Shown here one piece after another: positions 21,351 through 52,477 of a DNA stretch of 64,000 bases. Both the position numbers and the translations under genes were made by a program. The notes beneath the pieces were generated by a model. It was not told the DNA's origin and searched no databases. It was given only the letters and a program-made list of their open reading frames with translations. Positions within the stretch are counted from its first letter, which is position 1. Each line of letters starts with the position of its first letter. Source of the DNA: a virus (taxonomy: Duplodnaviria; Heunggongvirae; Uroviricota; Caudoviricetes); IMG/VR virus record IMGVR_UViG_3300002334_000208; one strand, written 5' to 3'.

Positions 21351-21600
21351 ACGGTACAAAATATGTGGACCAACTTCTAGTGGAAATTTCTTTGTTTCTT
21401 ATCATGTGTGGGGACCGTTCTGGAAAAAGTCTATTATGGATGGCTGGTACTATCCACGGCAATATGACAGTTTTGCTACAGCAGAAATATATCTTAAAAC
21501 TCAGCGCAAACAAGACGCAGTAATTGATGAGGCAGTTGCAGACGCAAAAATAAAAAAAGCACAACGAAGAAAAGATTACAAATGTCAGGAAATAAAATGA
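21343..21600 (+). CDS. hypothetical protein (start moved to MSRRYK)
   Basis: ORF. Confidence 0.35.
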   Translation: MSRRYKICGPTSSGNFFVSYHVWGPFWKKSIMDGWYYPRQYDSFATAEIYLKTQRKQDAVIDEAVADAKIKKAQRRKDYKCQEIK

Positions 21601-22604
21601 GCAAGCAAACTCTCGGCGTCTTCATCGGACGCTTCCAACCATTTCACGCCGGTCATCTGGAAACAACCAGACAGGCGCTGGAGCTTTTTGATAAAGTGAT
21701 TATCATTATTGGCTCGGCGGACGTACCGGCAACAACTAAAAATCCTTTGGATATAGAGGCGCGCTCAGCAATTATTACAGCAGCATTCACCACTGAGGAA
21801 TTAGCACGTATCCACATCACCCGCGCAGACGACCATGACTACCAGCCAGGGCGCTGGATTGAACAGATCAAAATTCTGGTAGAGTGGACTCATTCACCCG
21901 ACCAGTGGGACATCACGCTGGTAGGACATCACAAAGATGAATCTTCATCTTATCTGGACTGGTTTCCAAATTGGAACTTCTACGAGTCTGAAAATTTCGA
22001 TGGCATGGGTGCTACGACAATCCGTGATCAGTTTTTCAATGGCAGTTCACAATTTATTTCTCCGAATTTCTTCTGCAACGAAAAACATCGGGCAGAAGTG
22101 TTTGATCGGATGACGCCACTGGCAGATATTCTCAGACCGGAATGGTGCCTAATTCACGAATATGAGAGCATTTGGGGTAAAGGGCCTCACAGGACCGCTG
22201 ACGCGCTTGTCGAGTGCAACGGTCATATCCTACTGATTGAACGCGGCCAAGCGCCCGGCAAAGGTCTTCTGGCGTTTCCCGGAGGCTTTCTGGAAAAAGG
22301 CGAGAGATTAATTGATGCTTCTATCCGAGAATTGATGGAAGAGACTAATATTGGTATCACAAAAAGTGAACTAATTGACTCTGCTTCACTTCCAATTGTG
22401 TTCGATGCCAAAAATCGCGATCCGCGCAGTTGGAATATCTCTGGGTTGACACATTTCAAAATTACGGCTACGACTTTACCAGACGTACACCCAGCAGACG
22501 ATGCGGCAAAAACAAGCTGGTATCCAATCACCATGATGCATGGTAAAGGAAAATTATTCTTTGCGGACCACTATCGAATTATTCAGAAACTTCTAAACGT
22601 TTAG
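21582..22604 (+). CDS. nadM: bifunctional NMN adenylyltransferase / Nudix hydrolase
   Basis: GVFIGRFQPFHAGH (HxGH nucleotidyltransferase motif) N-terminal; Nudix box GGFLEKGERLIDASIRELMEETNI C-terminal. Confidence 0.8.
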   Translation: MSGNKMSKQTLGVFIGRFQPFHAGHLETTRQALELFDKVIIIIGSADVPATTKNPLDIEARSAIITAAFTTEELARIHITRADDHDYQPGRWIEQIKILVEWTHSPDQWDITLVGHHKDESSSYLDWFPNWNFYESENFDGMGATTIRDQFFNGSSQFISPNFFCNEKHRAEVFDRMTPLADILRPEWCLIHEYESIWGKGPHRTADALVECNGHILLIERGQAPGKGLLAFPGGFLEKGERLIDASIRELMEETNIGITKSELIDSASLPIVFDAKNRDPRSWNISGLTHFKITATTLPDVHPADDAAKTSWYPITMMHGKGKLFFADHYRIIQKLLNV

Positions 22605-22612
22605 GAAATAAC

Positions 22613-23011
22613 ATGCCAGTCAATAAACAGAATATTGATATCTTGATAGACATCCTAAAAGATGAAGAAGTATTTTTTGATATGGCAGATTATCAAATCT
22701 ATACATCGCCATCTTCATGCGGAACAGCTTCATGCGGAACAGCTTCCTGCCTATGTGGGCATATTAATTATATATTGAACGGAGGTAAAATGGAACCTCA
22801 GGATTGGGGTAGACATAGTACAGCAAATAAGTTCTTGGGAATCTCGGACAGCGAAGGTAGGCTGTTATTTTTACCGGAAGAGAAGGTCATGCCAGACATA
22901 TATGGCGGCGATCTTTCACTTCAAAGAAAACTGGCGATAAATACATTACTGCATCTTAAAGAGACTGGCGAAGTTAACTGGTCTGATGCTAATCAAAAAA
23001 TCGGAGCATAA
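22613..23011 (+). CDS. hypothetical protein with SCGTA tandem peptide repeat
   Basis: 15-nt tandem DNA repeat 22717-22752. Confidence 0.4.
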   Translation: MPVNKQNIDILIDILKDEEVFFDMADYQIYTSPSSCGTASCGTASCLCGHINYILNGGKMEPQDWGRHSTANKFLGISDSEGRLLFLPEEKVMPDIYGGDLSLQRKLAINTLLHLKETGEVNWSDANQKIGA

Positions 23012-23012
23012 C

Positions 23013-24419
23013 ATGACAGCCAATATTATTCTCGACACCGACAGCTACAAGCAAAGTCACCATCTGCAGGACCCACCCGGTACCACGCACAAATCGTTCT
23101 ACATCACGGCGCGGGGAAACCCGGACACTGATTGTGAAGTTGCATTTCTGGGGCTGCAGCCGTACATCGAAAATATGCGCATCAACGCACAGAATATTGA
23201 AGAAGCGCAAGACGTTATTCCGAAGCACATCCCCGGGCTGGAATTCAATTTCGATGGCTGGCAAACAATCCTCAATGAATTCGATGGCTTTCTTCCTATC
23301 GCCATTGATGCGCTGCCGGAAGGAACTGTTGTCGAACGTGGTACACCGATGTTGCAGACGCACAACACCGATCCTCGTTTTCCTTGGCTCTGTGGGCATC
23401 AGGAAACTCGTATGCTCCGTTCGATCTGGTATCCATCTACGGTTGGTACCAAATCTCGTGGCTACAGGAGATTGATCGAAGAAGCTCTCCGCAAAACAGG
23501 TGGCGATGTTGACTCCGCTGTATTCAAGCTCCACGATTTCGGTGCGCGCGGCGTATCATCTCGTGAATCTTCTGCCATCGGCGGCTGGGCGCATCTCACC
23601 AGTTTTCAAGGTACGGATACAATGATGGCGCTGCTACATGCTCGCCAATATTACAATTGTGATATGGCTGGATTTTCCATACCGGCGTCCGAACACTCAA
23701 CAATGGCCTGTTGGGGTGAAGGGCGAGAGGTCGAAGCATACCGTCACATGCTGGAGACTTTTGGTCACACGATGTTTGGCACCGTCTCAGACACATGGGA
23801 TATTGAAAACGCCTGTACAAATGTTTGGGGCAACACGCTCAGAGATGAAGTTATTGCAATTCTTGGTCAGCTTGTCGTCCGCCCCGACTCTGGCGCAGTA
23901 ATCCCAATGGTGCTAGATTGTTTGGATCGCCTCGGTGTCCAGTTTGGTATTACCTTCAACAATGATGGCTTCAAAATGCTGCACGATAAAGTGCGGTTGA
24001 TCCAAGGTGATGGACTTGACGATACTTCTTTACCCCTCCTGATTGGTGCTATTGCTGATGCATTGTGGTCACTCGATAATACTGCATTTGGTATGGGTGG
24101 CGGTCTGCTGCAGAAGCACAATCGTGATGATTATAAATGGGCGATGAAATGTAATGCTATCTCATATGGTGATGAGGTCTGGCATGGAGTCAACAAAGAA
24201 CCAAAATCTGATCCAGGCAAAGCGTCTGCAAAAGGCAGAGCCTGGGTGAGCCAAGAAAATCATGTCTGGTATTCCAGCAGACATCAGCTATTAAGTTTTG
24301 AGGAAGATACAAATCCGGTCTTTCCTAATGCGCTCATCACTCATTATGTCAATGGCTTCACAACCATCGACGGTGACATGGAAGCTATTCGTGAAAGGGT
24401 TGCTCAAGATGTCAGATAA
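23013..24419 (+). CDS. nadV: nicotinamide phosphoribosyltransferase
   Basis: N-terminus ILDTDSYKQSHH, length ~468 aa, GTD and DG motifs typical of NAPRTase/Nampt family. Confidence 0.8.
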   Translation: MTANIILDTDSYKQSHHLQDPPGTTHKSFYITARGNPDTDCEVAFLGLQPYIENMRINAQNIEEAQDVIPKHIPGLEFNFDGWQTILNEFDGFLPIAIDALPEGTVVERGTPMLQTHNTDPRFPWLCGHQETRMLRSIWYPSTVGTKSRGYRRLIEEALRKTGGDVDSAVFKLHDFGARGVSSRESSAIGGWAHLTSFQGTDTMMALLHARQYYNCDMAGFSIPASEHSTMACWGEGREVEAYRHMLETFGHTMFGTVSDTWDIENACTNVWGNTLRDEVIAILGQLVVRPDSGAVIPMVLDCLDRLGVQFGITFNNDGFKMLHDKVRLIQGDGLDDTSLPLLIGAIADALWSLDNTAFGMGGGLLQKHNRDDYKWAMKCNAISYGDEVWHGVNKEPKSDPGKASAKGRAWVSQENHVWYSSRHQLLSFEEDTNPVFPNALITHYVNGFTTIDGDMEAIRERVAQDVR

Positions 24420-27008: not shown

Positions 27009-27302
27009 ATGAAAATAACTCAGCAAGGATCAAGAACAAACGTCACTATGACGTTTTCAAATGGGTACAGCGTCAGTCTGACATCAGGCCACCGTGTAGG
27101 CTTGGAAGATTTTGGAATCATCTGGGCTGCATATTGGTCTGCAATCGACACCACCACAATCTCAGTTAATGAGTGGATGTATGATGATGAAGCTACTAAG
27201 TTTCTTGATTACATGAGCAAACTGGAGCCAGTCAATAATACTGTTGACAGTAAAGAATATATCGACGCAGACATCATCAAAATTTTTGGAGGCAATGGAT
27301 GA
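27009..27302 (+). CDS. hypothetical protein translationally coupled to rtcB
   Basis: 4-nt ATGA overlap with rtcB start. Confidence 0.4.
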   Translation: MKITQQGSRTNVTMTFSNGYSVSLTSGHRVGLEDFGIIWAAYWSAIDTTTISVNEWMYDDEATKFLDYMSKLEPVNNTVDSKEYIDADIIKIFGGNG

Positions 27303-28714
27303 ACATCACCGGCAGACATTTAATCGAATGGGGTTTCAACCCCGGTCCATTGTTTCCTGTTATGTTGGCATATGCCAATCAGCAGACGTACATTGACGAG
27401 CGCAGTCTTGAAGGCATCAAAAACTTACTTTTGGCACAGGATGAATTCATTCCTGTACCAAAACTTGAGCTGAAACCTCTCAGCCTTGATCCCCTTGCCA
27501 ATGTGACTTTCAACATCCTAACAACTGCTGGATGCGAATACGACCTAGATAACCTCTTGGCTGTAGAAAAAATCATGGGCAAACTCATGCGTACTCCGGT
27601 CGCCACTCGCGCAACTGTATTACCTGACGCCTGTCCTACTGGACCTAATTCAATGCCGGTTGGCACTGTTGTGGAAAGCCCACACATTCATCCCGGTTGG
27701 CACAGTGCCGATATCTGCTGCTCTATGTTCTTGACTGAGTACAAAAACGTAACCCCTGCTATCCTATTGGATGCGGTGAGTGATGCTGTGCATTTCGGCC
27801 CCGGTGGTCCAGACAGATATCGCATGACTGATGAATTGTTGGAAGCGTTCATGGGGAATTCATTCCTGAATGATCCACATATGTTGGACCTTGCAAACCG
27901 CCATCTTGGCAGTTCTGGCGATGGAAACCATTTTGCCTCGGTTGGCACTATGCAATCTAGCGGCAACACTACTCTTGTAACTCACTCTGGTTCTCGCGGC
28001 CCTGGCGCTCGCCTATATAAAATTGGCATGAAGGCAGCTCAGAAATACACCAAGTCTATTTCTCCGGCTACCCATAAATCAAATGCTTGGATTGACTCTG
28101 AAAGCGCAGAAGGTATTGAATACTGGAAAGCTCTGCAGATCATGCGCGACTGGACTAAATTGAATCATACTTTGATTCATGCAAGTTCTAGTTATCGCGC
28201 TATGGCTAAGGCTAATAATATACGTACTGTTAACCGCTTCTGGAACGAACACAATTTCGTATTCAAGCGCAATGGCATGTTTCTGCATGGCAAAGGTGCG
28301 ACTCCAGCCTTCGACGGTTGGGCAGATGATGCTAAAATGTTCACCATCATACCATTAAACGCCGCTGAGCCGATTCTAATCACTCGTGGCAGCGACAACC
28401 CTGATGCCCTTGGATTCGCTCCACACGGCGCAGGCAGGCTGATTTCACGCGCCCAGCACAAAAGAGACCTAGTAGCCGTTGGTATCTCTGACGCGCAGGC
28501 TTTCGAAGAAGAAACTCGTGATATCGATATGAGGTTCTGGTCCGGCGAAGCTGACGTGACTGAGCTACCATCCGCCTATAAAAATGCGTCGATGATCCGT
28601 GAAGGTATCAAAAAGTATGAGCTTGCACAGATCGTAGACCAAGTGTTGCCGTATGGATGCATCATGGGTGGTGTGTTCGATTGGCGAAATTATGCTAACG
28701 AGCAATTCAGCTAA
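27299..28714 (+). CDS. rtcB: RNA-splicing ligase RtcB (3'-phosphate/5'-hydroxyl RNA ligase)
   Basis: 471 aa; metal/GMP-binding motifs GDGNHFASVG, HSGSRGPG, APHGAGR. Confidence 0.85.
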   Translation: MNITGRHLIEWGFNPGPLFPVMLAYANQQTYIDERSLEGIKNLLLAQDEFIPVPKLELKPLSLDPLANVTFNILTTAGCEYDLDNLLAVEKIMGKLMRTPVATRATVLPDACPTGPNSMPVGTVVESPHIHPGWHSADICCSMFLTEYKNVTPAILLDAVSDAVHFGPGGPDRYRMTDELLEAFMGNSFLNDPHMLDLANRHLGSSGDGNHFASVGTMQSSGNTTLVTHSGSRGPGARLYKIGMKAAQKYTKSISPATHKSNAWIDSESAEGIEYWKALQIMRDWTKLNHTLIHASSSYRAMAKANNIRTVNRFWNEHNFVFKRNGMFLHGKGATPAFDGWADDAKMFTIIPLNAAEPILITRGSDNPDALGFAPHGAGRLISRAQHKRDLVAVGISDAQAFEEETRDIDMRFWSGEADVTELPSAYKNASMIREGIKKYELAQIVDQVLPYGCIMGGVFDWRNYANEQFS

Positions 28715-30465: not shown

Positions 30466-30696
30466 TTAATCACTCTTTCTGTCAAGGTTGCTATCGAATG
30501 GGATGCAAGTGATATTCACTTCATTGATAAATGGTGGCTTGAAGCGAATCACTTCTGCAGCCACCCTCCGACATATATCCATAGAAGGAAAATTGCGTGG
30601 ACTGAAATCCTGCTGATATTTGTCGTTGAGCATTAGCCCAGCTTCGCCATAAATCATGCCGACCAGTACAAAGACTGTCATTGTTACGCCTGTCAT
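30466..30696 (-). CDS. small membrane protein (76 aa)
   Basis: N-terminal TM helix. Confidence 0.35.
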   Translation of the reverse strand: MTGVTMTVFVLVGMIYGEAGLMLNDKYQQDFSPRNFPSMDICRRVAAEVIRFKPPFINEVNITCIPFDSNLDRKSD

Positions 30697-31217
30697 TTCG
30701 ATCTCCTTATCATCGCCCTGACACGAGCCAGAACTTTCGGTTTACCAGCAATGCTGATGTGATTTGCGTTCTTCACTACGATAACGGTACCACGATTTAG
30801 TGGTCTACCAATGGGATCGTCGGTGATAAAATTGTCTACGAAGCGAGGCACCCTGGAAACCACAGGGGATTTCGGCGCGTCGATGATGGCGAGATAGTCG
30901 ATCTTGATTCCCTCTGCTGCCAACCGGCGCGAGAGCTTCGCTGCAGCGGTACCACCGAGCGAGTGACCAATGATTATGAGTGGGCGATGGAGTATACCGG
31001 CTTCACTTCTTTTTATGATGTCATTGTAGATGCGATTACCGGCATGCCGTGTGTAAACCTTCGCGCCAACTTTTGATGAAAGAGATTTTAACCCATGACC
31101 AAAAGAAGAGCCGCCAAGCCCCATGATTGCATATGATGGTTTTGCAGGATTATATTCTGACGTGGTTGTGCAACCAGCCATGAATATGAGAATAAAAATG
31201 AGAAGTAGTTTACGCAT
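30693..31217 (-). CDS. lipoprotein alpha/beta-hydrolase (GxSxG esterase/lipase-like)
   Basis: lipobox IFMAGC; nucleophile elbow IIGHSLGG. Confidence 0.55.
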   Translation of the reverse strand: MRKLLLIFILIFMAGCTTTSEYNPAKPSYAIMGLGGSSFGHGLKSLSSKVGAKVYTRHAGNRIYNDIIKRSEAGILHRPLIIIGHSLGGTAAAKLSRRLAAEGIKIDYLAIIDAPKSPVVSRVPRFVDNFITDDPIGRPLNRGTVIVVKNANHISIAGKPKVLARVRAMIRRSK

Positions 31218-31340: not shown

Positions 31341-31700
31341 TCAAGAATTCTTTGCTAATATCTTCAAACGTATGTCGATCCACTCCATTAATTGTGGAAG
31401 AGTTATGCAACCGGCACCGCCAGCGACAATTTCTCCGCCCCTAAATAGAACGAAACTGGGAGCAAATTTGCAATCATATGTGATCCCAAGGTCTTTGTCT
31501 TCATCCAAATCGGAGTATAAAAACAAACACTTATCGCCAATCTTCTTTTCGGCGTTATCAAGAATGATATCAAATTTGTTGCAGGGACCAGCCCATTCAG
31601 TCACAAAAGTCAGAAGAATTAAATCATCTGCCTTCTGAGCCTGGAGTAATTTTGCAAATTCATCGCAAAGGACGAATGAGAGTTGATCTGGTTTCTGCAT
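31341..31700 (-). CDS. thioredoxin-fold protein with non-canonical WAGPC active site
   Basis: LTFVTEWAGPCNKF aligns to Trx WCGPC; first (nucleophilic) Cys replaced by Ala. Confidence 0.6.
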   Translation of the reverse strand: MQKPDQLSFVLCDEFAKLLQAQKADDLILLTFVTEWAGPCNKFDIILDNAEKKIGDKCLFLYSDLDEDKDLGITYDCKFAPSFVLFRGGEIVAGGAGCITLPQLMEWIDIRLKILAKNS

Positions 31701-31721
31701 TAAATTCTCCGTGCCCTATAT

Positions 31722-34700
31722 CTAAGCCACTTCTTGCTCGTCGTCAAGCCATGTTTCAGCAAAGATTGAAGGATGGTTAACTCTCATTTCAGAGAGTGGA
31801 GGAAAGACGTAGCACCAGATCGGATTGGCATATGATGCTACGCGCCTTCGAGAAGTGACAACATCTTCGAAAGTCTGATTCATATATTTCTTGCACTCTT
31901 TAATGAAAGAAGTATGTGGATTAGATCGAGTATTATGTTTCCACCACGCATGCATAACACTGTGGGGCACCAGAGTTTCCTCGTCTTCTGAGAAAACAAT
32001 CTCATCCAAATCATCGGCGTACTGCGAAGAAGGAAGGGCCTCTCCTTGATAAAGCGCATCGTCCAACCATTTTTCCCAGTGAGGCTTGTTCTGAGAAATC
32101 TGTTCGTGGAGCCAAGGAGTGACTGGCGGCTTGAAGAAATAAGCTTTCCACCCTTCTTTCGGCTCAGGCCAATTTGTTAAAATGTGCATGAGTTTACCGT
32201 ACCCATCTTCATTCAACATTTGATCCATTAGGGCTCCGAAATGTTCTGGATTACCACAAAGAGTTGAGAGGCATTTCAGCACAAAGAAGCGGCGTTCATC
32301 TTTGGTCGCTGGAACAACGAAGCCAGCATTTGCCGTGCAAGCAAAACGTCGATAGTTTGGAATTTCCATATCATCGACACCCTTCAATTTGAGAGTGAAT
32401 GAATTGCTGGTGATTGCATCTTTGAGGTTTGCTTCTACTGTGCGGTCGCCACCCCAGAATGCTTCTGTCATGACAACGAGCAATTTGTTTTCGACGCGCG
32501 CATTGAAGTGACCAAACACTGTTTTCATATCGGCGGTTTTCATTCCATATGGATGTAGTAAAATATTTGCAAATATTTCTTCCATGACAATAGATTTACC
32601 ACAACCTTTATCTCCGTGAATTACGATTGCGCAACCCGGGATACCCTCCGGCACCTGAATGATATGGGCAAACCAAGACATAAAGAAGTCATACCATACA
32701 TCATTTGAGTGACACATATTTTCATAGATGTGATCAAGCAGCATGTCACAATTGCCATCTTCTTTTTCTTCAACGGCAAATCCGTTCCAAAGATTATAGG
32801 TCTTTCCCAGACCGTCAACATCATCTTTCATAATATTTCCTCCGCTTGGATCAAAAACCAGAGACGAATATTCGCGCCGATCTGCCCAGTCAAGCCACAC
32901 ATCTGCAGCATTCTTTTGTATTGTATTGCCTTGAGCAACATCAAATACGTCAAGCATTTTATTGCGGTGACGGATATTAAAATCGTATGGCACCATTGTG
33001 GTGATAGAGTTTTTTGCAGGATCGCGCCGATAGGCTTTGTCGTACATTATGATCGTGCGCCCGTTCATAGTGACCATTGCATGACGTTCATTCATGATGC
33101 GCAAATTCTGTTTGACTTCTTTGTCGTAACGCTTATCAGCGGTGCCAAATTCTTCCTCGGCCAACTGCTTAATCACATCCTTTACCTGCTTCGCAACAGT
33201 CCGCTTACCGAAGCCACTATTATCGGAGATTTGAGACACATGCAGATCATTCATGGCAGAAGATAACTCCAATCCAATCAAGCGCTTAATAGCGTCGATC
33301 AGGGCAGCTTCTTTCTTTTCAGGCATGTCAGAAATAAGTGATAGAAAATCCTGATAGTCCTCGGATAGGTTGTCGAATTCGTCTTTTGATACATTCAGAT
33401 TACCAATTTTTTCTGTGTAGAGACCTGAGTCTTCAATCTCTGTTTCTTCGTCGAGCAAATCAGACAAACTATTTGCCGAGCCAGAGCCATCCAAGCCGGG
33501 GACGAATTCCATAAGCTCGTCAAACTCTATGCCCTCGTCATGCAGGAATGAATCCAAATGCATGGAATACTTGTATCCTTTGCAGCTGGTATGCATGCAG
33601 TGGATAAAGGCTGTGTCGTATTGTTCCCCGGCGTCAGCTACACAGAATCCAGTCTTGTCATTCGGATCGGAATGCCCACCAATGAAGGTGCATTCAAATG
33701 TACCTTTGCCAGCCTTTTCCTCGGAATGCTTGACACCGTAGGTTTCCCAAAATTCATAGGCAAGAAAGTTTTTGCCATGCTTTTTGAGGAAGCCTTCTAC
33801 GCGCTTGTCATGAAAATCGTAATCGAAATAATCACCCTCTTCATCGCCGCCAGAACTCATCGCTTCTTGATCCAGCCATTCATTGCCGGTCATTTTTATG
33901 TAGCCAGATGGGTTGCCATCTTTGATAGACATCAAGTCCAGCAACTCGCCATTAATCAAATGGGATTCAAATGGAGCATCTTCTTTGTGGCGTCCACGAT
34001 AAAACAACCGAGAGACATCGGTGCAAGAAGCATCAAATTCAATTTTCAGCTGCTGCGCTACCCCGGCGTACTTCTTAGCCCAAATAGCAAAGCCCTCATC
34101 TTGTGAGCCAGCGACCTCTCCCGGGAGAAAGGGCTCATACAAAGGGAACACCGCTCGGTATTTATCCATAGGACTATGACTCACAACAGCCACGCGCCCA
34201 TAGCGAGTCGACTCCAGCGAGACTTCGAATTTGTCAAGAACCCCGGGGTGATATTTTTTCTCTTCAAGCAGATATTTACGCACATCATCAGCGTCGATAT
34301 CATTCTCATCTTTGTCCAACTTCAATTTCATTTTGATAGTCTTGAGAAGAATATTTTCCTCGGTATTGCCATGCGAGTTGGAAGTGTATACGAGAGCAAA
34401 TAGATCATTTTCTTTGATCCGTTCAATCATTTTGTCGATGGGAAATCCGTTGTCGATGTCGAGAGATATGAAGTTCATTTCGACCATTGCTTTTTTCAAA
34501 CGCTGGATGCGATCTTCGGCTAAACACCCCTGTAGAAATGACAGGCCATCCTTCGTCCCTACTTCATGCACAAGGTTGCCAGCAAGGAATTCGAAGAAGG
34601 TGAATTCTTGTGTACGCCAATTTTTGTCTTTGGAATTTCGCCCGATAGAAATGGTGACTTTATCCTGCATCCATTCTGGGAACTCATTTGAATTTTTGCC

Positions 34701-34739
34701 GAAGCCGTGAAAGATTGCGTGATCAATACCTGATGTCAT
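31722..34739 (-). CDS. primase-polymerase / D5-like SF3 helicase (replicative primase-helicase)
   Basis: AEP PrimPol motifs (ISLDIDNG DxD; SHSPMDKYRAVFPL sxH); Cys/His zinc motif; Walker A IVIHGDKGCGKS and VVMTEAFWGG in C-terminal SF3 domain; 1005 aa. Confidence 0.75.
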   Translation of the reverse strand: MTSGIDHAIFHGFGKNSNEFPEWMQDKVTISIGRNSKDKNWRTQEFTFFEFLAGNLVHEVGTKDGLSFLQGCLAEDRIQRLKKAMVEMNFISLDIDNGFPIDKMIERIKENDLFALVYTSNSHGNTEENILLKTIKMKLKLDKDENDIDADDVRKYLLEEKKYHPGVLDKFEVSLESTRYGRVAVVSHSPMDKYRAVFPLYEPFLPGEVAGSQDEGFAIWAKKYAGVAQQLKIEFDASCTDVSRLFYRGRHKEDAPFESHLINGELLDLMSIKDGNPSGYIKMTGNEWLDQEAMSSGGDEEGDYFDYDFHDKRVEGFLKKHGKNFLAYEFWETYGVKHSEEKAGKGTFECTFIGGHSDPNDKTGFCVADAGEQYDTAFIHCMHTSCKGYKYSMHLDSFLHDEGIEFDELMEFVPGLDGSGSANSLSDLLDEETEIEDSGLYTEKIGNLNVSKDEFDNLSEDYQDFLSLISDMPEKKEAALIDAIKRLIGLELSSAMNDLHVSQISDNSGFGKRTVAKQVKDVIKQLAEEEFGTADKRYDKEVKQNLRIMNERHAMVTMNGRTIIMYDKAYRRDPAKNSITTMVPYDFNIRHRNKMLDVFDVAQGNTIQKNAADVWLDWADRREYSSLVFDPSGGNIMKDDVDGLGKTYNLWNGFAVEEKEDGNCDMLLDHIYENMCHSNDVWYDFFMSWFAHIIQVPEGIPGCAIVIHGDKGCGKSIVMEEIFANILLHPYGMKTADMKTVFGHFNARVENKLLVVMTEAFWGGDRTVEANLKDAITSNSFTLKLKGVDDMEIPNYRRFACTANAGFVVPATKDERRFFVLKCLSTLCGNPEHFGALMDQMLNEDGYGKLMHILTNWPEPKEGWKAYFFKPPVTPWLHEQISQNKPHWEKWLDDALYQGEALPSSQYADDLDEIVFSEDEETLVPHSVMHAWWKHNTRSNPHTSFIKECKKYMNQTFEDVVTSRRRVASYANPIWCYVFPPLSEMRVNHPSIFAETWLDDEQEVA

Positions 34740-35123: not shown

Positions 35124-35711
35124 ATGACAATCAAACGTGCAAAAGTTTTGACAGACAAACAATTCAGCAAACTGATGAAGCACCTCGCGGAGGGATTAAA
35201 CCCAGAGCGCGACCATGTGATGTTTGCTCTCTCATTTAAGTGCGGACTGCGCGCACAGGAGATTGCCGGGTTGAACTGGATTGACGTGACGGACGCCGAG
35301 GGGAACATCTACAAGCCGGATACAATGATCGAGTTGCCCCACTCAATTACGAAAGGCTCCGTGACAGAGGGTAAAATCATCATGCACAAGTTGGTATATA
35401 ACACATTGAAGAATCTGCGCAAAGCAAATTTGTCTGAATTTCTTATGCCAGCGCCACGCTCACCTTCTGGGCGCATGTCCACAAACAACGTGACAGTTTA
35501 TATGCATGCCGTGTTCAAGAAGCTCGGTTATGTTGGCTGCTCCAGCCACTCCGGGCGGCGCACGTTTGGCACAAAGTTGGCGCGTATTGCCAACAAGCAA
35601 GGAGGCTCTTTCGTGGATGTGAAAGATTTACTCCGCCACAAAGACATTCGAACGACACGAGCATATGTTGATTCTAGTGACACGCAGAAGAAGATGATTG
35701 CCGCAATATAA
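35124..35711 (+). CDS. short tyrosine recombinase (integrase/invertase catalytic domain only)
   Basis: box I GLRAQEIAGL, box II HSGRRTFGT, LLRHKDIRTTRAYVD with catalytic Tyr; only 195 aa. Confidence 0.65.
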   Translation: MTIKRAKVLTDKQFSKLMKHLAEGLNPERDHVMFALSFKCGLRAQEIAGLNWIDVTDAEGNIYKPDTMIELPHSITKGSVTEGKIIMHKLVYNTLKNLRKANLSEFLMPAPRSPSGRMSTNNVTVYMHAVFKKLGYVGCSSHSGRRTFGTKLARIANKQGGSFVDVKDLLRHKDIRTTRAYVDSSDTQKKMIAAI

Positions 35712-41332: not shown

Positions 41333-43528
41333 ATGGCAAAACGCGAACTGCAGACTCTGATCTTCGATATCGAAAGTGATGGTCTGCTCCCGACAATGAC
41401 GAAAATCCACTGCTTAGCTATCCGCGAGTATGAGACTGGACAGGTGTGGCGTTTTCGTAAAAACAAAAAAGAAGATACCATCGCAAAAGGTATCACCATG
41501 CTCCAGAAAGCCAAAGTGCTTGTTGGGCAGAACATCATTGATTTTGATATCCCAGCCATTCAATTAGTTTTTCCAGACTTTGATCCTGTTGGATTAATCG
41601 AAGACACACTGGTTTATGTACGGTTGCTTTTTGCCAATCAGAAAGACAAAGATTTTGAACCATGGCGCAGAGGTAAACACCCCGGCAACTTAATTGGTCA
41701 CCAGTCGTTGGATGCATGGGGCCATCGCCTTGGGCTGCACAAAGGTGATTACAAAAAAGAGATGGAAGCAAAAGCTAAAGCTCTTGGGCTCACTGACAAA
41801 GAGGAAATCAGTTTCTTTGTTTGGGGTGAGTGGAATCAGAATATGGACGATTATTGCCTCGGCGACATTGATGTCAATACGAAACTATGGACGCATTGTC
41901 TTGCGCAAAGATTCCCACAAGGACCAATTGATTTTGAGCATGAGTTTCACGAATTTGCGTGTAAGCTATCTGCTGACGGTTTCCCATTTGACATTGCGCG
42001 TGCCAAAGTCTTGGCAGAGGAATTGATTGCTGATTCTGACGTACTTGTTGAGCAAGCAAAAGAATTTTATGGAAGATGGTTTGCCCCGGGCAGAAAACAC
42101 ATAATTGAAATGCTCTGGGACGATCCTGACGGAAAGAACGCCAAGAAGACATATGAAAAACCTCGCACCGAATATGGTGAAGACAGGTCCCGTTCGATCT
42201 GGGCAGAGGTTGACGTATCAAAACGCACAACAGCGTACAAATCCCTTTACACCAAGCGCACAAATAAAAAGACCGGCGTGGAAAAAGTCACTATGAACTA
42301 TGACAAGTTCGAGGACGCATTTGTTTCTAAGGTACAGATCAAAGATTTCAAACCAACATCTCGCCAAATGATTGTGGATCGCTTCACAACTATTTATGGA
42401 TGGGAGCCGAAAGAATTTACCGATGGCGGCGCTCCATCTGTCAATGATGATGTGTTACAAAATCTGATCGGTATAATCCCAATGGCAGAAGAGCTGGCGG
42501 AAATTTTCTACCTATCAAAACGTGTGGGTATGATTGCCACCGGACCAAATGCTTGGCTCAATCAAGTGGGAGAAGATGGGGCGATCCACCATAGATTGAA
42601 TGGGGGTGGAACTATTTCCGGGCGTTGTTCTCACTCATTCCCAAATGTTGGGCAGGTACCAAAAGTCAAGCTTGCTAAAGTCTTTGATGTGAACGGAGAG
42701 GTAAACACAAAATTCATTTCCGGCGATGGCACTATATCTCCACTCGTCTTTGATGCTGATGGTGAATATAAGAAGAATGCTATCTTAACTGGACGCAACG
42801 GTGATCATGGCTGGGACTGCCGCCGACTATTCTATACGCCACCTGGCTGGGTGCAGGTAGGCTGCGATCTGTCTGGTATCGAATTGCGCTGCTTGGCATC
42901 ACTAGCTGCACCCTATGACAATGGCTATTTGATTGACCAAATATTGAATGGGGATATTCACACTGCGAATCAACACGCTGCCGGATTGCCAACCCGGGAC
43001 ATGGCTAAGACATTTATTTACGCTCTGGTGTACGGCGCTGGCGATGTGAAGATTGGATCGATTGTTGATCCACTCGCCGACGAAGAAACACAAAGAGCAA
43101 GAGGCAAGGAACTAAAAGAAAGCTTCTTTAGCAAGCTGCCCGGACTTGCCGCTGCTGTGAAAATGATTAAACGTGAAGCCAAACGAGGCTGGATCGAAGG
43201 ACTTGACGGTCGCCGATTATTTGTCCGCTCACCTCACTCAGCACTAAATCTTAGACTGCAATCTGATGGAGCCGTACTAGCAAAACGGTGGACCTTGATT
43301 GCCATCGACAAACTGCTCGACGCTGGACATCAATGGGGTTGGGATGGCGATTTTGTATTCATGGCATTCGTACACGATGAACACCAAACAGCTGTGAAAC
43401 CACACCTGAGAGATTACATGAAAGAACTGATGGTGCAATCAGCAAAAGAAGCTGGAGAATTCTATAATTTCGGAATGGAAGTGGCTGCAGAGTCAAAACA
43501 CGGCATAAATTGGAGCGAATGTCACTAA
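41333..43528 (+). CDS. family A DNA polymerase with 3'-5' exonuclease domain (T7-like)
   Basis: Exo I LIFDIESDGL; Pol motif A DLSGIELR, motif B RDMAKTFIYALVYG, motif C FVHDE. Confidence 0.85.
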   Translation: MAKRELQTLIFDIESDGLLPTMTKIHCLAIREYETGQVWRFRKNKKEDTIAKGITMLQKAKVLVGQNIIDFDIPAIQLVFPDFDPVGLIEDTLVYVRLLFANQKDKDFEPWRRGKHPGNLIGHQSLDAWGHRLGLHKGDYKKEMEAKAKALGLTDKEEISFFVWGEWNQNMDDYCLGDIDVNTKLWTHCLAQRFPQGPIDFEHEFHEFACKLSADGFPFDIARAKVLAEELIADSDVLVEQAKEFYGRWFAPGRKHIIEMLWDDPDGKNAKKTYEKPRTEYGEDRSRSIWAEVDVSKRTTAYKSLYTKRTNKKTGVEKVTMNYDKFEDAFVSKVQIKDFKPTSRQMIVDRFTTIYGWEPKEFTDGGAPSVNDDVLQNLIGIIPMAEELAEIFYLSKRVGMIATGPNAWLNQVGEDGAIHHRLNGGGTISGRCSHSFPNVGQVPKVKLAKVFDVNGEVNTKFISGDGTISPLVFDADGEYKKNAILTGRNGDHGWDCRRLFYTPPGWVQVGCDLSGIELRCLASLAAPYDNGYLIDQILNGDIHTANQHAAGLPTRDMAKTFIYALVYGAGDVKIGSIVDPLADEETQRARGKELKESFFSKLPGLAAAVKMIKREAKRGWIEGLDGRRLFVRSPHSALNLRLQSDGAVLAKRWTLIAIDKLLDAGHQWGWDGDFVFMAFVHDEHQTAVKPHLRDYMKELMVQSAKEAGEFYNFGMEVAAESKHGINWSECH

Positions 43529-49482: not shown

Positions 49483-49848
49483 ATGACCACAGAAAATCAA
49501 GAGGCGGTCGAACCGTCCAAAGAAGAATTACAGGAACTACGCGACGAGGGGCTTACCCGCGACGAGATAGCTGCGATCTATGAGACTTCAACATCTCAGG
49601 TAAAACGATGGTTGGCGGATTACAAGATCGTGAAAACCATTACTCAGCCAAATATGAATCTGATACCGGCTGCAACCGAGAATCTTAATTGGGATGCTGG
49701 GATGCCGGTGATGGAGAGATGCAAATTTCGTCTCGGTGAGCGCATGACAGAAGATAGCAGAGGATACCGCCTTGACGGTCGCCCTACATCTTCCAAAGAT
49801 TTGATATTAGCTGCTGGTCTACCCCTCGCAGACCGCGCACTGAGTTAG
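49483..49848 (+). CDS. small HTH-like protein (121 aa)
   Basis: ORF; LTRDEIAAIYETSTSQVKRW helix-turn-helix-like. Confidence 0.35.
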   Translation: MTTENQEAVEPSKEELQELRDEGLTRDEIAAIYETSTSQVKRWLADYKIVKTITQPNMNLIPAATENLNWDAGMPVMERCKFRLGERMTEDSRGYRLDGRPTSSKDLILAAGLPLADRALS

Positions 49849-51510
49849 AGCTCTATTGAGTTCTTGAGATAAACTAGTGCTTCGCTGATAATAGAGGGTC
49901 TTCACTTTTCTTTCCCACGCATAAATTAACAGTTCATGAATATCTTTGACCGGCGTATCTGGATGGATCATCAGATTGATTGATTGCGACTGATCAATAT
50001 AAGGGGCACGGTCGGCGGCTTGATCAATGATCGACATTTGCGACACTTCACCGAATGTTTTGAACACATCTTTCTCATCTTGAGAGAGGAAGTGCAAATG
50101 TGACACCGATCCACCATTCATCAAAATCGATTTCCAAGTAGGTGCCGTGTTCCAGCCTTTGCTTTCCAACAGAGCTTCCAAGAACTCGTTTTTTATAGGG
50201 AAATTGCCCTTGGCGAGCTTTTCGGTGTAATAATTGGAGTTTCTGGGCTCGATAGACTTTGAAACCTTACCAAGGATGAACGAGGATGAGGTTGTAGGGG
50301 CAAGAGCCATTCTGGTAGCATTGCGGTAGCCGTAACCCTCTAAAACCTCTGGTTCACCAAATGAGAGGGCCAATTCTCTGCTCGCCTCTGCAGATTGCTC
50401 ATTCAGCTGTATAAAGATGGTTTTGTTCAGAGCCCGGGCATATAGTCCGTCGAAAGCAAGCATATTGCTCTGCAGGTAAGAATGCCAGCCGAGCACACCA
50501 AGACCGACCGATCGGTGACGCTTTGCAAACCGGTGAGCGCAATCCATAAGGGGCACGCCCTCGGTTTTTTGAATGTACTCTTCCATCACGCTGTCCAGAA
50601 AATACATCATATTTCGGACAAGGTTGGTTTCTTTCCAATCGTCATAATAAAGGAGGTTCACCGAGGACAGGCAGCACACAAATGATTCGTCTTTACTGGA
50701 AGGCAGGGCAACTTCTGCGCACAGATTGGAAGCCCATATTTTCATTCCATGATCACGATACCATTGCGGCGCGCCATTGTTCACGGTGTCTGTCCAGAAT
50801 AGATAAGGATAGCCGGTCATGCTCCGTTTCTTTAGAATGCGCAACCAAACTTTTCTTTTATCATCGTCACCGGCAATCATTGCTTCCATCCACGCATCCG
50901 TGATGGTCACGCCAAGTGATAAATCCTGGATCGTATTCCCCTCTTCTCGGCACTCCAAGAATTCCATAATGTCGGCGTGCTCGATGTTCAGATATACCGC
51001 GCAATTACCACGGCGAATATTTGACTGGCTGATCACATCAACCGTCTCCTGTAGGATACGCATGAAATGGACTGGACCTTCTGATGTCCCACCAACGCTA
51101 ATCTTTGCGCCGCGCGGTCGCAGCTCGCCCATGTATGCGCTGGTCCCAGCACCGAACTTTGTTTGTCCGCCGATCTCAGCTGTCTTCAACAGAATTGATT
51201 CCACACTGTCGTCATAGAAACTGCCATTGCAGCTGATCGGCAGGCCACGGTCGTTACCGTAATTCGACCACACCGGTGAAGAGAATGAGACCCATCCTTT
51301 TAGGACCTGCTGTTCGAACTCATCAGCGAACCCAGCGATTTCAAGATTAGCTTCCGCTGTCTCGCAAATCTGCCTGATGCGTTCTTCTGGTGTCTGATTG
51401 TTGTGGAGATATCCTCGTGATAGGAAAGTTCTTGTGTCCGCGTCTAGCCATTTTGTCATTTTAAAATACATCTTCTGAGTTGTAGGTCTTTCCGTTTTTT
51501 GCGTAATCAA
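49819..51510 (-). CDS. nrdA: class I ribonucleotide reductase alpha subunit (short form, no ATP cone)
   Basis: active-site SNLCAEV, catalytic Cys/Glu/Asn context, 563 aa; adjacent nrdB. Confidence 0.75.
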   Translation of the reverse strand: MITQKTERPTTQKMYFKMTKWLDADTRTFLSRGYLHNNQTPEERIRQICETAEANLEIAGFADEFEQQVLKGWVSFSSPVWSNYGNDRGLPISCNGSFYDDSVESILLKTAEIGGQTKFGAGTSAYMGELRPRGAKISVGGTSEGPVHFMRILQETVDVISQSNIRRGNCAVYLNIEHADIMEFLECREEGNTIQDLSLGVTITDAWMEAMIAGDDDKRKVWLRILKKRSMTGYPYLFWTDTVNNGAPQWYRDHGMKIWASNLCAEVALPSSKDESFVCCLSSVNLLYYDDWKETNLVRNMMYFLDSVMEEYIQKTEGVPLMDCAHRFAKRHRSVGLGVLGWHSYLQSNMLAFDGLYARALNKTIFIQLNEQSAEASRELALSFGEPEVLEGYGYRNATRMALAPTTSSSFILGKVSKSIEPRNSNYYTEKLAKGNFPIKNEFLEALLESKGWNTAPTWKSILMNGGSVSHLHFLSQDEKDVFKTFGEVSQMSIIDQAADRAPYIDQSQSINLMIHPDTPVKDIHELLIYAWERKVKTLYYQRSTSLSQELNRALTQCAVCEG

Positions 51511-52477
51511 CCGGTTTGGAATGAAAGAAGTCAGTTGAATTGTTGCCGTAGAGTTCCACGTCGAACCATTCAGTCTGCTTCATCATATCATCGTTCGTGA
51601 TAGCAATTGGTGCAAAACCAATTGACTCCAGCGAACTGTTTAGCCGGGATGCTACAAAATTTCTTAATATAGGTTTGCTCAGTCCATCAACTTTATAATC
51701 ACCAAGCATCCATTCGATTAGTTCTGCCTCTGCATCGAATGCAACTATTGCTTCTTGCCTAATTCGTTCTGCCAGCTCTTCATCGAACAGTTCTGGGTAT
51801 TCTTCACGCAGCGTGTTGATCAGCTTGATGCCGATTTTTGCGTGTAGGTCTTCTTCATTGCGCGTATAGCTGACTTGTTGAGCGGTGTCCTTCAAGACAT
51901 TGCGGAATGTGTTGAAATGCATGATGGTGTAGAACTGACTGAACAGGCTAACATTCTCGACGAATAGGGTGAACAGAATGATGGCGTAAACATATTGCTT
52001 ACGATCATCGTCATATATTTTGCTGCTGTATTTGCGCAGATAATCAACCCGGCTTCTCACGACAGGCTCATCCAAATTTTTCTCAAATTCATCCTGGAGA
52101 TCAAGAACTTTGAGCAGCTTCTCATACGCTTGATTGTGAATGACCTCTGAGTTAGCCATAACCAGACCGAGATCAGAGATAGAAGGGTGTTTGAAGTTAC
52201 GACCGAGATCAGCCCAGAATCGCTTCACTGTGATCTCTATCTGACCAATAGCCGAGAGTGTGCGCGTAATCAGCTGGCGCTCCTGATCATTGAGAGATGT
52301 GAGGAATTGGGATTTATCTGAACTAAAATTGAATTCGTCCGGCGTCCAGAAGGTGCGCCAGAACGTGGTAATAAATTCTTGTGTCCACGGATACCTGTCA
52401 GGTAATCTGTGAACTTGTTCGTCAAATAAGCCCATGGGAAAATCTCTTGTTAGTGTGTGAGATTCAGTATGCCGCAA
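51461..52477 (-). CDS. nrdB: class I ribonucleotide reductase beta subunit
   Basis: di-iron ligand pattern ExxH twice (NSEVIH, NEEDLH), FVENVSLFSQF aromatic radical-site region. Confidence 0.7.
   Translation of the reverse strand: MRHTESHTLTRDFPMGLFDEQVHRLPDRYPWTQEFITTFWRTFWTPDEFNFSSDKSQFLTSLNDQERQLITRTLSAIGQIEITVKRFWADLGRNFKHPSISDLGLVMANSEVIHNQAYEKLLKVLDLQDEFEKNLDEPVVRSRVDYLRKYSSKIYDDDRKQYVYAIILFTLFVENVSLFSQFYTIMHFNTFRNVLKDTAQQVSYTRNEEDLHAKIGIKLINTLREEYPELFDEELAERIRQEAIVAFDAEAELIEWMLGDYKVDGLSKPILRNFVASRLNSSLESIGFAPIAITNDDMMKQTEWFDVELYGNNSTDFFHSKPVDYAKNGKTYNSEDVF

What the first reader, a model, noticed from the sequence alone, without database searches (positions are those of the whole stretch)
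31341..31700. Phage thioredoxin-like protein with WAGPC (single-Cys) active site, alongside a T7-type DNA polymerase
The 119-aa protein aligns to the thioredoxin active-site region, but the nucleophilic Cys is Ala (WAGPC). The genome also encodes a T7-like family A DNA polymerase (41333-43528) and class I RNR. T7 DNA polymerase uses host thioredoxin as a processivity factor independent of redox chemistry, whereas RNR reduction needs both cysteines. A phage-encoded redox-dead Trx therefore more plausibly serves as a dedicated polymerase clamp or a monothiol specialist than as an RNR reductant.
Basis: partly seen in the sequence, partly recalled or inferred. Interest (0 to 1): 0.55.

Follow-up and report, generated by a model that had tools for sequence, protein, structure and literature searches.

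The report
Redox-dead phage thioredoxin (WAGPC)
This phage carries a well-folded thioredoxin that has lost the cysteine needed for redox chemistry, one member of a phage-only group of such proteins found in phages with a T7-type DNA polymerase, so it most likely works as a structural part of the replication machinery, though that is untested.

Summary
ORF 31341-31700 (-) encodes a 119-aa classical thioredoxin fold (Pfam 43 bits; AF2 pLDDT 95; TM 0.9 to E. coli Trx). Its motif is WAGPC. Cys32 is Ala through a two-base change, and the catalytic Asp26 and Lys57 are also gone.

It is not an error. Three other lineages at about 55% identity keep WAGPCN under purifying selection. A profile search finds at least 58 clusters with WAGPC, including six cultured roseophages annotated plainly as "thioredoxin". 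Related phages carry WSGPA or CGPS/T. No paper in the searched library contains "WAGPC".

The phage also has a T7-type DNA polymerase with an 86-aa insertion at the T7 thioredoxin-binding site, and a class I RNR.

A redox-independent replisome role fits best, most likely docking on the polymerase thumb. A "monothiol specialist" is unlikely, because the retained Cys is the buried resolving one.

Verdict: a new variant of a known kind, of moderate interest.

The parts
31341..31700 (-). Gene for a 119-aa thioredoxin-fold protein with the motif WAGPC instead of WCGPC
   Evidence: ORF. Pfam PF00085 43.2 bits. AF2 pLDDT 95.0 with the full beta-alpha thioredoxin topology. TM 0.9 and rmsd 1.2-2 A to E. 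coli thioredoxin, including chain B of the T7 polymerase complexes 1t7p and 1t8e.
31581..31595 (-). Codons for W36-A37-G38-P39-C40 (TGG GCT GGT CCC TGC), the degenerate active-site motif
   Evidence: Read directly. Ala37 aligns with E. coli Cys32 and Cys40 with Cys35. Conserved as WAGPCN in all four lineages of the subfamily.
31470..31472 (-). Codon for Cys77 in a YDC[KR] motif, four residues before the cis-Pro; conserved only in this subfamily
   Evidence: Invariant in P0001, P0002, P0003 and the L008 protein. Replaced by Val, Leu or Ile in the roseophage WAGPC proteins and in E. coli (Ile72). Its role is unknown.
31707..31710 (-). GGAG ribosome-binding site, 6 nt spacer before the ATG
   Evidence: Upstream sequence ...GGCACGGAGAATTTA-ATG.
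31722..34739 (-). 1005-aa primase-helicase-like protein (DUF5906 NTPase at residues 707-817, acidic C-terminus ...WLDDEQEVA), immediately upstream of the thioredoxin gene on the same strand
   Evidence: Pfam PF19263 59.5 bits. Homologues are annotated as DNA primase or primase/polymerase in cultured phages. The pair primase-helicase then thioredoxin recurs in L001 (14-nt overlap) and L008 (4-nt overlap).
41333..43528 (+). T7 gp5-type family A DNA polymerase, 731 aa
   Evidence: phmmer against T7 gp5, E 3.6e-102 over the full length. AF2 pLDDT 91.9. The top 27 PDB fold matches are all T7 gp5, E down to 6.5e-54.
42089..42346 (+). Thumb insertion (residues 253-338) at the position of the T7 thioredoxin-binding domain. 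Ser332 (nt 42326-42328) aligns with T7 Thr327.
   Evidence: 86 aa between the anchors GRWFAP and FKPTSR, against 66 aa in T7. K+R = 20. Predicted as a beta-rich subdomain with pLDDT 81-92. 100 of 118 homologous polymerases have Cys where the window has Ser332.
49819..52477 (-). Class I ribonucleotide reductase, small subunit (51461..52477) and large subunit (49819..51510). The large subunit ends ...CAVCEG.
   Evidence: Pfam Ribonuc_red_lgC 319 bits and Ribonuc_red_sm 159 bits. The C-terminal CxxC is seen in the translation. By established knowledge of class I RNR, this pair needs an external dithiol reductant.

Best explanation
The gene encodes a thioredoxin that has been converted from a redox enzyme into a purely structural protein. 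It keeps the complete fold and the elements that form the partner-binding groove: Trp31, Gly33, Pro34, the cis-Pro loop and Gly92 (E. coli numbering). It has lost the attacking Cys32, the proton-relay Asp26 and Lys57, so it cannot reduce disulfides and cannot recycle the phage RNR.

I infer that it is a phage-supplied subunit of the replisome. Most likely it docks by its former active-site face onto the insertion in the thumb of the T7-type DNA polymerase, as host thioredoxin does on T7 gp5. This would stabilise the domain over the duplex, raise processivity, and free the phage from dependence on a compatible host thioredoxin. Co-expression with the adjacent primase-helicase, whose acidic C-terminal tail resembles the tail of T7 gp4 that binds the polymerase's thioredoxin-binding domain, would fit the same assembly.

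Shown: the fold, the loss of the redox residues, conservation and purifying selection, phage restriction, the polymerase type and the insertion site.
Inferred: binding to the polymerase, and the effect on processivity.
For: 1. Fold and identity. Pfam thioredoxin. AF2 pLDDT 95. Best PDB matches are E. coli thioredoxin, including the chains bound to T7 polymerase.

2. Redox machinery dismantled. C32A needs two base changes. D26 is T, I or A and K57 is S or C in the subfamily. D26 is M, F or V in the related degenerate phage proteins, whereas the canonical thioredoxin of phage BcepSauron keeps D26 and CGPC. NCBIfam TrxA scores 43 bits against a cut-off of 138.

3. Selected, not decaying. WAGPCN is kept at 55% identity. 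Between L008 and L009 there are 9 synonymous differences against 2 replacements.

4. A clade, not a singleton. 58 clusters with WAGPC score at or above 91 bits with the profile; canonical WCGPC appears only at 89 bits and below. A few members have also lost the second Cys (WAGPV, G, S).

5. Cultured members. RcXuper, RpAliso, DSS3P8, MAL1 and MD18 were read and carry WAGPCN. V10 is a sixth hit whose sequence I did not read. Bajun has WSGPA, and the Erythrobacter phages have CGPS or CGPT.

6. Groove residues. F27, G33, P34, cis-Pro76, G84 and G92 are invariant across all of these proteins; Trp31 is kept in most but is Phe in the two Erythrobacter phages.

7. Partner candidate. The T7-type polymerase has an insertion at the T7 site for thioredoxin binding. 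Its C-terminal strand aligns with T7 residues 322-333.

8. Co-occurrence. All six cultured roseophages (including V10) and Bajun carry this polymerase type.

9. Precedent. T7 uses thioredoxin independently of redox chemistry (stated in 10.1101/2025.10.05.680603). The T7 loop for thioredoxin binding is noted as present and extended in phiCbK-like polymerases (PMC3556154).

10. Basic tails. Pro-rich then Lys-rich C-terminal tails (PPxPxKGKKAKR) occur in 10 of 62 clade members and in the L008 protein. They have no obvious use in a reductase.

11. A matching loss. The window polymerase has Ser where 100 of 118 relatives have a usually lone Cys, at the position aligned with T7 Thr327. That fits a partner that has no Cys32.
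Against: - No binding evidence of any kind.
- The gene lies 9.6 kb from the polymerase gene, on the other strand, and is coupled to the primase-helicase instead.
- Relatives with the same thumb insertion have no thioredoxin of their own. This applies to the phiCbK-like Caulobacter phages and to Mwe-JY26 (absent from the hit list and from every hit listed). No thioredoxin lies within 10 kb of the polymerase in L030-L032.
- The insertion is predicted as a well-ordered beta-rich subdomain on its own (pLDDT 81-92). It may not need a cofactor.
- E. coli Gly74, where substitution blocks T7 binding (from memory), is Phe here.
- For Syn5, AlphaFold3 placed the host thioredoxin, not the phage one, on the polymerase (10.1101/2025.10.05.680603).
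- The Cys/Ser covariation is not strict. The L001-type phage, which has a WAGPC thioredoxin, probably pairs with polymerase P0249, which keeps the Cys (same sample series).
Confidence: 0.45

Rival explanations
1. The protein is an accessory subunit of the adjacent DUF5906 primase-helicase, or of another replisome protein, rather than of the polymerase. It would use the thioredoxin groove to hold a helicase segment.
For: The thioredoxin gene follows the roughly 1000-aa primase-helicase directly in the window (21-nt gap), in L001 (14-nt overlap) and in L008 (4-nt overlap). That suggests translational coupling. The pair stays together although its orientation relative to the neighbouring 195-aa recombinase-like gene and the SNF2 gene differs between the window and L008.
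Against: The adjacency is confined to this small subfamily. In P0002's contig the upstream gene is a 70-aa ORF. In RcXuper, RpAliso, DSS3P8, MD18 and XM05 the neighbours are unrelated. Twenty IMG/VR loci with homologous primase-helicases have no thioredoxin within 3 kb. Shared synteny among related phages may explain the linkage.
Confidence: 0.15
2. The protein has a redox-independent role outside replication. Options are a holdase or chaperone like the SxxC thioredoxin domain of CnoX/YbbN, a virion-assembly factor as thioredoxin is for filamentous phage, or a decoy that competes with host thioredoxin for its partners.
For: E. coli YbbN/CnoX has an SQHC motif, no oxidoreductase activity, and acts as a holdase with a second reactive Cys elsewhere in the domain (10.1101/2020.04.09.034579; PMC10998233). 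This subfamily has a second conserved Cys, Cys77. Gene neighbourhoods in the wider clade are not replication genes. A lipoprotein-like hydrolase gene lies downstream in the window and in L007-L010.
Against: There is no TPR or other client-binding domain: the protein is 119 aa and a single domain. In cultured phages the clade is restricted to those with a T7-type polymerase. Basic C-terminal tails point towards nucleic acid or acidic-tail partners.
Confidence: 0.2
3. The protein still does thiol chemistry with a non-standard cysteine set (Cys40 with Cys77, or Cys40 alone). It would act as a specialised monothiol redoxin, for instance towards the phage RNR.
For: Cys40 is kept in 58 of about 62 clade members. 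Cys77 is invariant in the four subfamily lineages and aligns with a residue near the substrate groove (the position is inferred from human Trx Val71, from memory). The 64-kb window holds no canonical dithiol redoxin, although the RNR large subunit ends in CAVC.
Against: The retained Cys is the buried resolving one. Asp26 and Lys57, which tune the thiols, are gone. Some members have WAGPV, G or S, and Bajun has WSGPA. Cys77 is absent from the roseophage members. By established knowledge, both the dithiol and the monothiol mechanisms of the thioredoxin superfamily use the N-terminal Cys.
Confidence: 0.1
4. The gene is a decaying remnant of a captured thioredoxin gene and has no function.
For: Loss of the catalytic residues is what decay would produce first.
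Against: The ORF is intact with an RBS. The fold is predicted at pLDDT 95. The motif is invariant at 55% identity and across at least 58 clusters. Synonymous differences exceed replacements 9 to 2 between close relatives.
Confidence: 0.03

Closest known systems
E. coli thioredoxin TrxA acting as the processivity factor of T7 DNA polymerase (gp5)
   Same: The same classical thioredoxin fold (TM about 0.9). The phage has a gp5-type polymerase with an insertion at the same thumb position. The T7 role needs no redox chemistry (10.1101/2025.10.05.680603; PMC8010470 for the 76-residue domain and the 5 nM affinity).
   Different: The protein is phage-encoded, not host-encoded. It is naturally devoid of Cys32, Asp26 and Lys57. 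It shares only about 30% identity and has Phe at the Gly74 position. The polymerase insertion is 20 aa longer, shares only its C-terminal strand with T7, and carries a clade-specific YGEDxSRxxWxEV motif. Binding is untested.
The "thioredoxin" genes of DSS3-phi-8-like roseophages (DSS3P8, V10, MAL1, MD18, RpAliso, RcXuper)
   Same: The same WAGPCN motif, the same loss of Asp26, and the same T7-type polymerase in the genome. These are the nearest hits among cultured phages (32.6% identity).
   Different: They share only 25-33% identity with the window protein. They lack the N-terminal extension and Cys77, and their gene neighbours differ. Whether the two groups share a single C32A event is unresolved, because blast scores to the roseophage group and to the best canonical thioredoxins are similar. 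Published descriptions treat these genes as ordinary thioredoxins (PMC4961962). No paper in the library contains "WAGPC".
Cyanophage Syn5 thioredoxin
   Same: A phage-encoded thioredoxin in a phage with a T7-type polymerase and an RNR. The same two candidate roles were weighed for it (10.1101/2025.10.05.680603).
   Different: The Syn5 protein has CGPC and is redox-active. AF3 predicts that the host protein, not the phage one, binds its polymerase. The window protein cannot be a reductant, which removes one of the two options.
Thioredoxin domain of CnoX/YbbN (SQHC)
   Same: A thioredoxin domain that lacks the N-terminal Cys but keeps the C-terminal one. It has no oxidoreductase activity and has a second functional Cys elsewhere in the domain (10.1101/2020.04.09.034579; PMC10998233).
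   Different: CnoX is a bacterial two-domain protein with a TPR domain and acts as a stress holdase. The window protein is a single 119-aa domain in a phage replication region.

Membership tests
Thioredoxin (TrxA-type, Pfam PF00085 / NCBIfam TIGR01068) | Classical thioredoxin fold (beta-alpha-beta-alpha-beta-alpha-beta-beta-alpha) | tested here: met
   AF2 pLDDT 95 with the expected order of elements. TM 0.9 to E. coli thioredoxin. Pfam 43.2 bits against a cut-off of 23.5.
Thioredoxin (TrxA-type, Pfam PF00085 / NCBIfam TIGR01068) | Dithiol active site Trp-Cys-Gly-Pro-Cys | tested here: not met
   The motif is WAGPC. The nucleophilic Cys is Ala, codon GCT.
Thioredoxin (TrxA-type, Pfam PF00085 / NCBIfam TIGR01068) | Buried Asp26 and Lys57 that tune the active-site thiols | tested here: not met
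   Asp26 is replaced by Thr31 (Ile or Ala in relatives) and Lys57 by Ser63.
Thioredoxin (TrxA-type, Pfam PF00085 / NCBIfam TIGR01068) | Conserved cis-Pro76 loop and Gly92 of the substrate groove | tested here: met
   Pro81 and Gly97 are invariant in every alignment made.
Thioredoxin (TrxA-type, Pfam PF00085 / NCBIfam TIGR01068) | Score above the curated equivalog cut-off | tested here: not met
   NCBIfam TrxA 43 bits against 138; TIGR01068 40.9 bits against 96.8.
Thioredoxin (TrxA-type, Pfam PF00085 / NCBIfam TIGR01068) | Disulfide reductase activity | not testable with these tools
   Needs an insulin or DTNB assay. Absence is inferred from the missing nucleophile.
Thioredoxin as processivity subunit of a T7-type DNA polymerase | The cognate polymerase is gp5-type with an insertion between thumb helices H and H1 | tested here: met
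   phmmer E 3.6e-102. 86 aa at the T7 258-333 site. Fold matches to T7 gp5.
Thioredoxin as processivity subunit of a T7-type DNA polymerase | The insertion is homologous to the T7 thioredoxin-binding domain | tested here: inconclusive
   Only the C-terminal strand aligns (T7 AGAPYTPVEHVV against EDAFVSKVQIKD). The rest is a clade-specific beta-rich subdomain.
Thioredoxin as processivity subunit of a T7-type DNA polymerase | Tight 1:1 binding of the thioredoxin to that insertion | not testable with these tools
No multimer predictor is available.
Thioredoxin as processivity subunit of a T7-type DNA polymerase | Stimulation of processivity | not testable with these tools
   Needs a biochemical assay.
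CnoX/YbbN chaperedoxin | Thioredoxin domain with xxxC in place of CxxC | tested here: met
   AGPC here against SQHC in CnoX (10.1101/2020.04.09.034579).
CnoX/YbbN chaperedoxin | C-terminal TPR domain | tested here: not met
   The protein is 119 aa and a single domain that ends with helix alpha-4.

The most novel reading that the evidence does not exclude
A phage-restricted clade of thioredoxins has been stripped of redox chemistry and fixed as a dedicated, phage-encoded replisome subunit for T7-type polymerases. In most relatives the polymerase thumb strand carries a usually lone, conserved Cys exactly where T7 has Thr327, the residue that (from memory) was engineered to Cys to cross-link thioredoxin Cys32. 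Those polymerases may therefore tether host thioredoxin covalently. This phage would have replaced that arrangement with a non-covalent pair, Trx Cys32 to Ala and polymerase Cys to Ser, and so escaped dependence on the host protein.
Probability: 0.3. Interest if true: 0.72.

Novelty: new variant of a known kind. Interest (0 to 1): 0.58.

Why it matters
What phage-encoded thioredoxins do is an open question. A 2025-26 preprint states that their function had never been investigated, and it weighs RNR reduction against polymerase processivity (10.1101/2025.10.05.680603).

A natural, conserved and widespread thioredoxin without the nucleophile rules out the reductant role for this clade. It points to a structural role. 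It also occurs in cultured, tractable systems (DSS3-phi-8 and RpAliso on Ruegeria pomeroyi, RcXuper on Rhodobacter capsulatus), so the question becomes directly testable.

These genes are currently annotated as ordinary thioredoxins and counted as auxiliary redox or metabolic genes. For this clade that label is probably wrong.

If the polymerase link holds, the pair could be a self-contained processive polymerase plus cofactor of practical interest.

Tried and rejected
- I tried to co-fold the thioredoxin with the polymerase as a linker fusion with a combined alignment (A7). MAFFT had also misaligned the short thioredoxin rows.
- **Walking along relatives' contigs.** I therefore could not check whether the L030-L032 phages carry the thioredoxin beyond the 10-kb flank.
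- **Searches that found nothing.**
  - IMG/VR scan with the subfamily alignment.
  - Single-sequence primase-helicase scan.
  - Megablast of the region against cultured phages.
  - PHROGs scan of the thioredoxin.
- **Strict Trx Cys32 / polymerase Cys covariation: rejected.** P0249 comes from the same sample series as the WAGPC thioredoxin P0003 and keeps the Cys. RcXuper and Bajun carry a Cys three residues upstream instead.
- **One WAGPC clade or two?** Blast scores do not separate the roseophage group from the best canonical thioredoxins. A single origin of C32A is therefore unresolved. The shared Asn after the second Cys hints at common descent.
- **Thr327/Cys32 contact in T7.** Searches for published support found no paper in the library. 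That point rests on memory, plus the check that T7 residue 327 is indeed the Thr in PYTPVEH.
- **Model coordinates.** They are not exposed, so the Cys40-Cys77 distance could not be measured.
- **Bacterial genomes.** The scan used a narrow roseophage-type pattern and found only two sporadic WAGPC proteins. It does not test the window-type motif.

Full report
**1.

The minus-strand ORF 31341..31700 encodes 119 aa. A GGAG lies 7 nt before its ATG. Pfam assigns it to Thioredoxin, PF00085, at 43.2 bits against a cut-off of 23.5, over residues 14-109.

Aligned with E. coli TrxA, the motif W36-A37-G38-P39-C40 replaces W31-C32-G33-P34-C35. The Ala codon is GCT, two substitutions away from a Cys codon.

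The buried Asp26 is Thr31 and Lys57 is Ser63.

The AF2 model built with 62 homologues has pLDDT 95.0 and the full thioredoxin topology. Its best PDB matches are E. coli thioredoxins at TM about 0.9 and rmsd 1.2-2 A. They include the thioredoxin chains of the T7 polymerase complexes 1t7p and 1t8e.

NCBIfam's TrxA and thioredoxin equivalog models score far below their cut-offs: 43 against 138 bits, and 40.9 against 96.8.

**2. It is neither an error nor a dying gene**

Three further lineages at about 55% identity all read WAGPCN:
- P0002, from an ENA metagenome;
- P0003, from Logan assemblies (loci L001-L006);
- the protein of JGI contigs L008-L010.

An exhaustive HMMER search of 1.84 billion representatives found one close cluster at 121.6 bits, then a drop to 73 bits. 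The window protein therefore belongs to a small, isolated subfamily.

L008 and L009 differ by 9 synonymous nucleotide changes and 2 conservative replacements. That indicates purifying selection.

A second Cys, Cys77 in YDC[KR], sits four residues before the cis-Pro. It is invariant in this subfamily only.

**3. A larger, phage-only pattern**

The best hit among cultured phages is the "thioredoxin" of Rhodobacter phage RcXuper. It also reads WAGPCN. So do RpAliso, DSS3P8, MAL1 and MD18. vB_RpoS-V10 is a further hit at the same score as DSS3P8, but I did not read its sequence.

| Phage or group | Motif |
|---|---|
| Window subfamily (4 lineages) | WAGPC |
| DSS3-phi-8-like roseophages | WAGPC |
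| Brevundimonas phage Bajun (phiCbK-like) | WSGPA |
| Erythrobacter phages vB_EliS-L02, XM05 | FCGPS, FCGPT |
| N4-like phages | CGPC, CQPC or CKPC (all CxxC) |
| Burkholderia jumbo phage BcepSauron | CGPC |

A profile of eight WAGPC proteins retrieved 58 clusters with WAGPC at 91 bits or more. A few of them had also lost the second Cys (WAGPV, WAGPG, WAGPS). Canonical WCGPC proteins appeared only at 89 bits and below. That search is word-indexed and therefore favours sequences that share the motif itself. The high full-length scores nevertheless show real relatedness.

Many members sit on contigs of 120-150 kb, the genome size of the DSS3-phi-8-like phages.

A scan of bacterial genomes, restricted to a narrow roseophage-type pattern, found only two sporadic WAGPC proteins.

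Whether the window subfamily and the roseophage group share one C32A event is unresolved.

No paper in the searched library contains "WAGPC". The DSS3-phi-8 and vB_EliS-L02 papers treat the gene as an ordinary thioredoxin (PMC4961962, PMC9127768).

**4. The polymerase**

ORF 41333..43528 is a gp5-type polymerase. phmmer gives E 3.6e-102 against T7 gp5. AF2 gives pLDDT 91.9. The 27 best fold matches are all T7 gp5.

Between the anchors GRWFAP and FKPTSR it has 86 residues where T7 has 66. This is the site of the T7 thioredoxin-binding loop, residues 258-333 according to PMC3556154. That paper already noted an extended loop in phiCbK and suggested an unknown partner.

The insertion shares a motif, YGEDxSRxxWxEV, with Mwe-JY26, RcXuper, phiCbK and Bajun. 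Only its C-terminal strand aligns with T7: AGAPYTPVEHVV against EDAFVSKVQIKD. It is basic (K+R = 20) and is predicted as an ordered beta-rich subdomain with pLDDT 81-92.

According to PMC10201439, only about 29% of T7-like polymerases have a domain of 50 aa or more at this position.

All cultured phages with a WAGPC or WSGPA thioredoxin carry this polymerase type.

**5. A lead from the polymerase side**

In 118 homologous polymerases, the residue aligned with T7 Thr327 is distributed as follows:
- Cys at that position in 100;
- Cys three residues upstream instead (EGC...) in 9 more;
- no Cys in the strand in 9, including the window (Ser332) and its nearest relative P0247.

The insertion usually contains only this one Cys: 70 of 105 have exactly one.

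From memory, Thr327 faces thioredoxin Cys32 in the T7 complex, and a T327C mutant cross-links to it (Johnson and Richardson 2003). I could not confirm this in the library. I did confirm that residue 327 of T7 gp5 is the Thr of PYTPVEH.

If the memory is right, most of these polymerases present a Cys to the thioredoxin active site. This phage would then have lost both partners of that contact: thioredoxin Cys to Ala, polymerase Cys to Ser.

The covariation is not strict. Polymerase P0249 comes from the same sample series as the WAGPC thioredoxin P0003 and keeps the Cys. RcXuper and Bajun have the upstream Cys.

**6. Gene context**

The thioredoxin gene follows a 1005-aa DUF5906 primase-helicase-like gene. 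The gap is 21 nt in the window. The genes overlap by 14 nt in L001 and by 4 nt in L008.

The pair survives a rearrangement relative to the neighbouring recombinase-like and SNF2 genes.

The helicase ends in an acidic tail in the window, L001 and Mwe-JY26. This recalls the T7 gp4 tail, which binds the polymerase's thioredoxin-binding domain.

The adjacency is absent elsewhere:
- P0002's contig has a different upstream gene;
- the roseophage genes have unrelated neighbours;
- 20 IMG/VR loci with homologous helicases have no thioredoxin nearby.

**7. Interpretation**

Loss of Cys32, Asp26 and Lys57, together with retention of the fold and most of the groove residues (Gly33, Pro34, cis-Pro and Gly92 invariant; Trp31 kept in most members, Phe in the Erythrobacter phages), argues for a binding protein rather than an enzyme.

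The clade is restricted to phages with a T7-type polymerase. Some members carry Pro-Lys-rich tails. T7 provides a precedent. Together these make a replisome role the best explanation, with the polymerase thumb as the likeliest docking site (confidence 0.45). The primase-helicase is the second candidate (0.15).

The arguments against are listed in the explanation sections. The main ones are that no binding test was possible, that many relatives have no thioredoxin of their own, that the insertion is predicted to be ordered by itself, and that the Syn5 study reached the opposite prediction for a redox-active phage thioredoxin.

An RNR-reductant role is effectively excluded. A monothiol role is unlikely.

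**8. Verdict**

The finding is real and wider than reported. Its mechanism is plausible but unproven. It is a new variant of a known kind, a thioredoxin used as a non-redox cofactor. It is worth following up because cultured phages carry the same motif.

Noticed in passing
window 42326-42328 (Ser332 of the polymerase); homologues P0246-P0365: 100 of 118 homologous T7-type polymerases have a usually lone Cys (motif GAP[FY]C) at the position aligned with T7 gp5 Thr327, and 9 more have a Cys three residues upstream. The window and its nearest relative have Ser. This may mean that many phiCbK-like and related polymerases form a mixed disulfide with host thioredoxin.
   Followed up: partly
window 52543-53262 (-): The dUTPase (239 aa) carries an N-terminal glutaredoxin/NrdH-like domain whose CxxC is SLDC, so it too lacks the first Cys. 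Relatives L031 and L032 have a separate 77-78-aa glutaredoxin gene with CVWC or CSFC just upstream of dUTPase. The 64-kb window therefore holds no canonical dithiol redoxin, although its RNR large subunit ends in CAVCEG.
   Followed up: partly
window 30693-31217 (-); L007 841-1236; L008 10764-11360: A 174-aa predicted lipoprotein (signal peptide ending FMAGC) with a GHSLGG hydrolase motif lies downstream of the thioredoxin gene. It is conserved in that position in the relatives at 29-45% identity. Its function is unknown.
   Followed up: no
window 35124-35711 (+); L008 6127-6714; L001 5265-5852: A short (195 aa) tyrosine-recombinase-like gene, 56-58% identical in the relatives, sits at the boundary of a rearrangement. 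In the window it is divergent from the primase-helicase/thioredoxin block and co-directional with the SNF2 gene. In L008 it is the reverse.
   Followed up: no
L021 1486-1821 (Brevundimonas phage Bajun, ON529858 196250-196585): A thioredoxin-fold gene with WSGPA (no active-site Cys at all) is annotated as "exonuclease". It lies next to an HTH gene and a helicase gene.
   Followed up: partly
window 43000-43180 approx. (polymerase residues 446-502): The polymerase has a second insertion relative to T7: about 56 aa where T7 has about 21, between the motifs PNVGQVPKV and TPPGW. It was not analysed.
   Followed up: no
window 21582-24419 and 27299-28714 (+): The phage encodes an NMN adenylyltransferase/Nudix-like protein and a nicotinamide phosphoribosyltransferase-like protein (NAD salvage), and an RtcB-like RNA ligase. 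These were judged from the translations only.
   Followed up: no
P0262, P0263: Polymerases 59% identical to the window's are recorded on Rhizobium and Sinorhizobium chromosome-sized contigs (4.66 Mb and 526 kb). This hints at prophage relatives and an alphaproteobacterial host range for the group.
   Followed up: no
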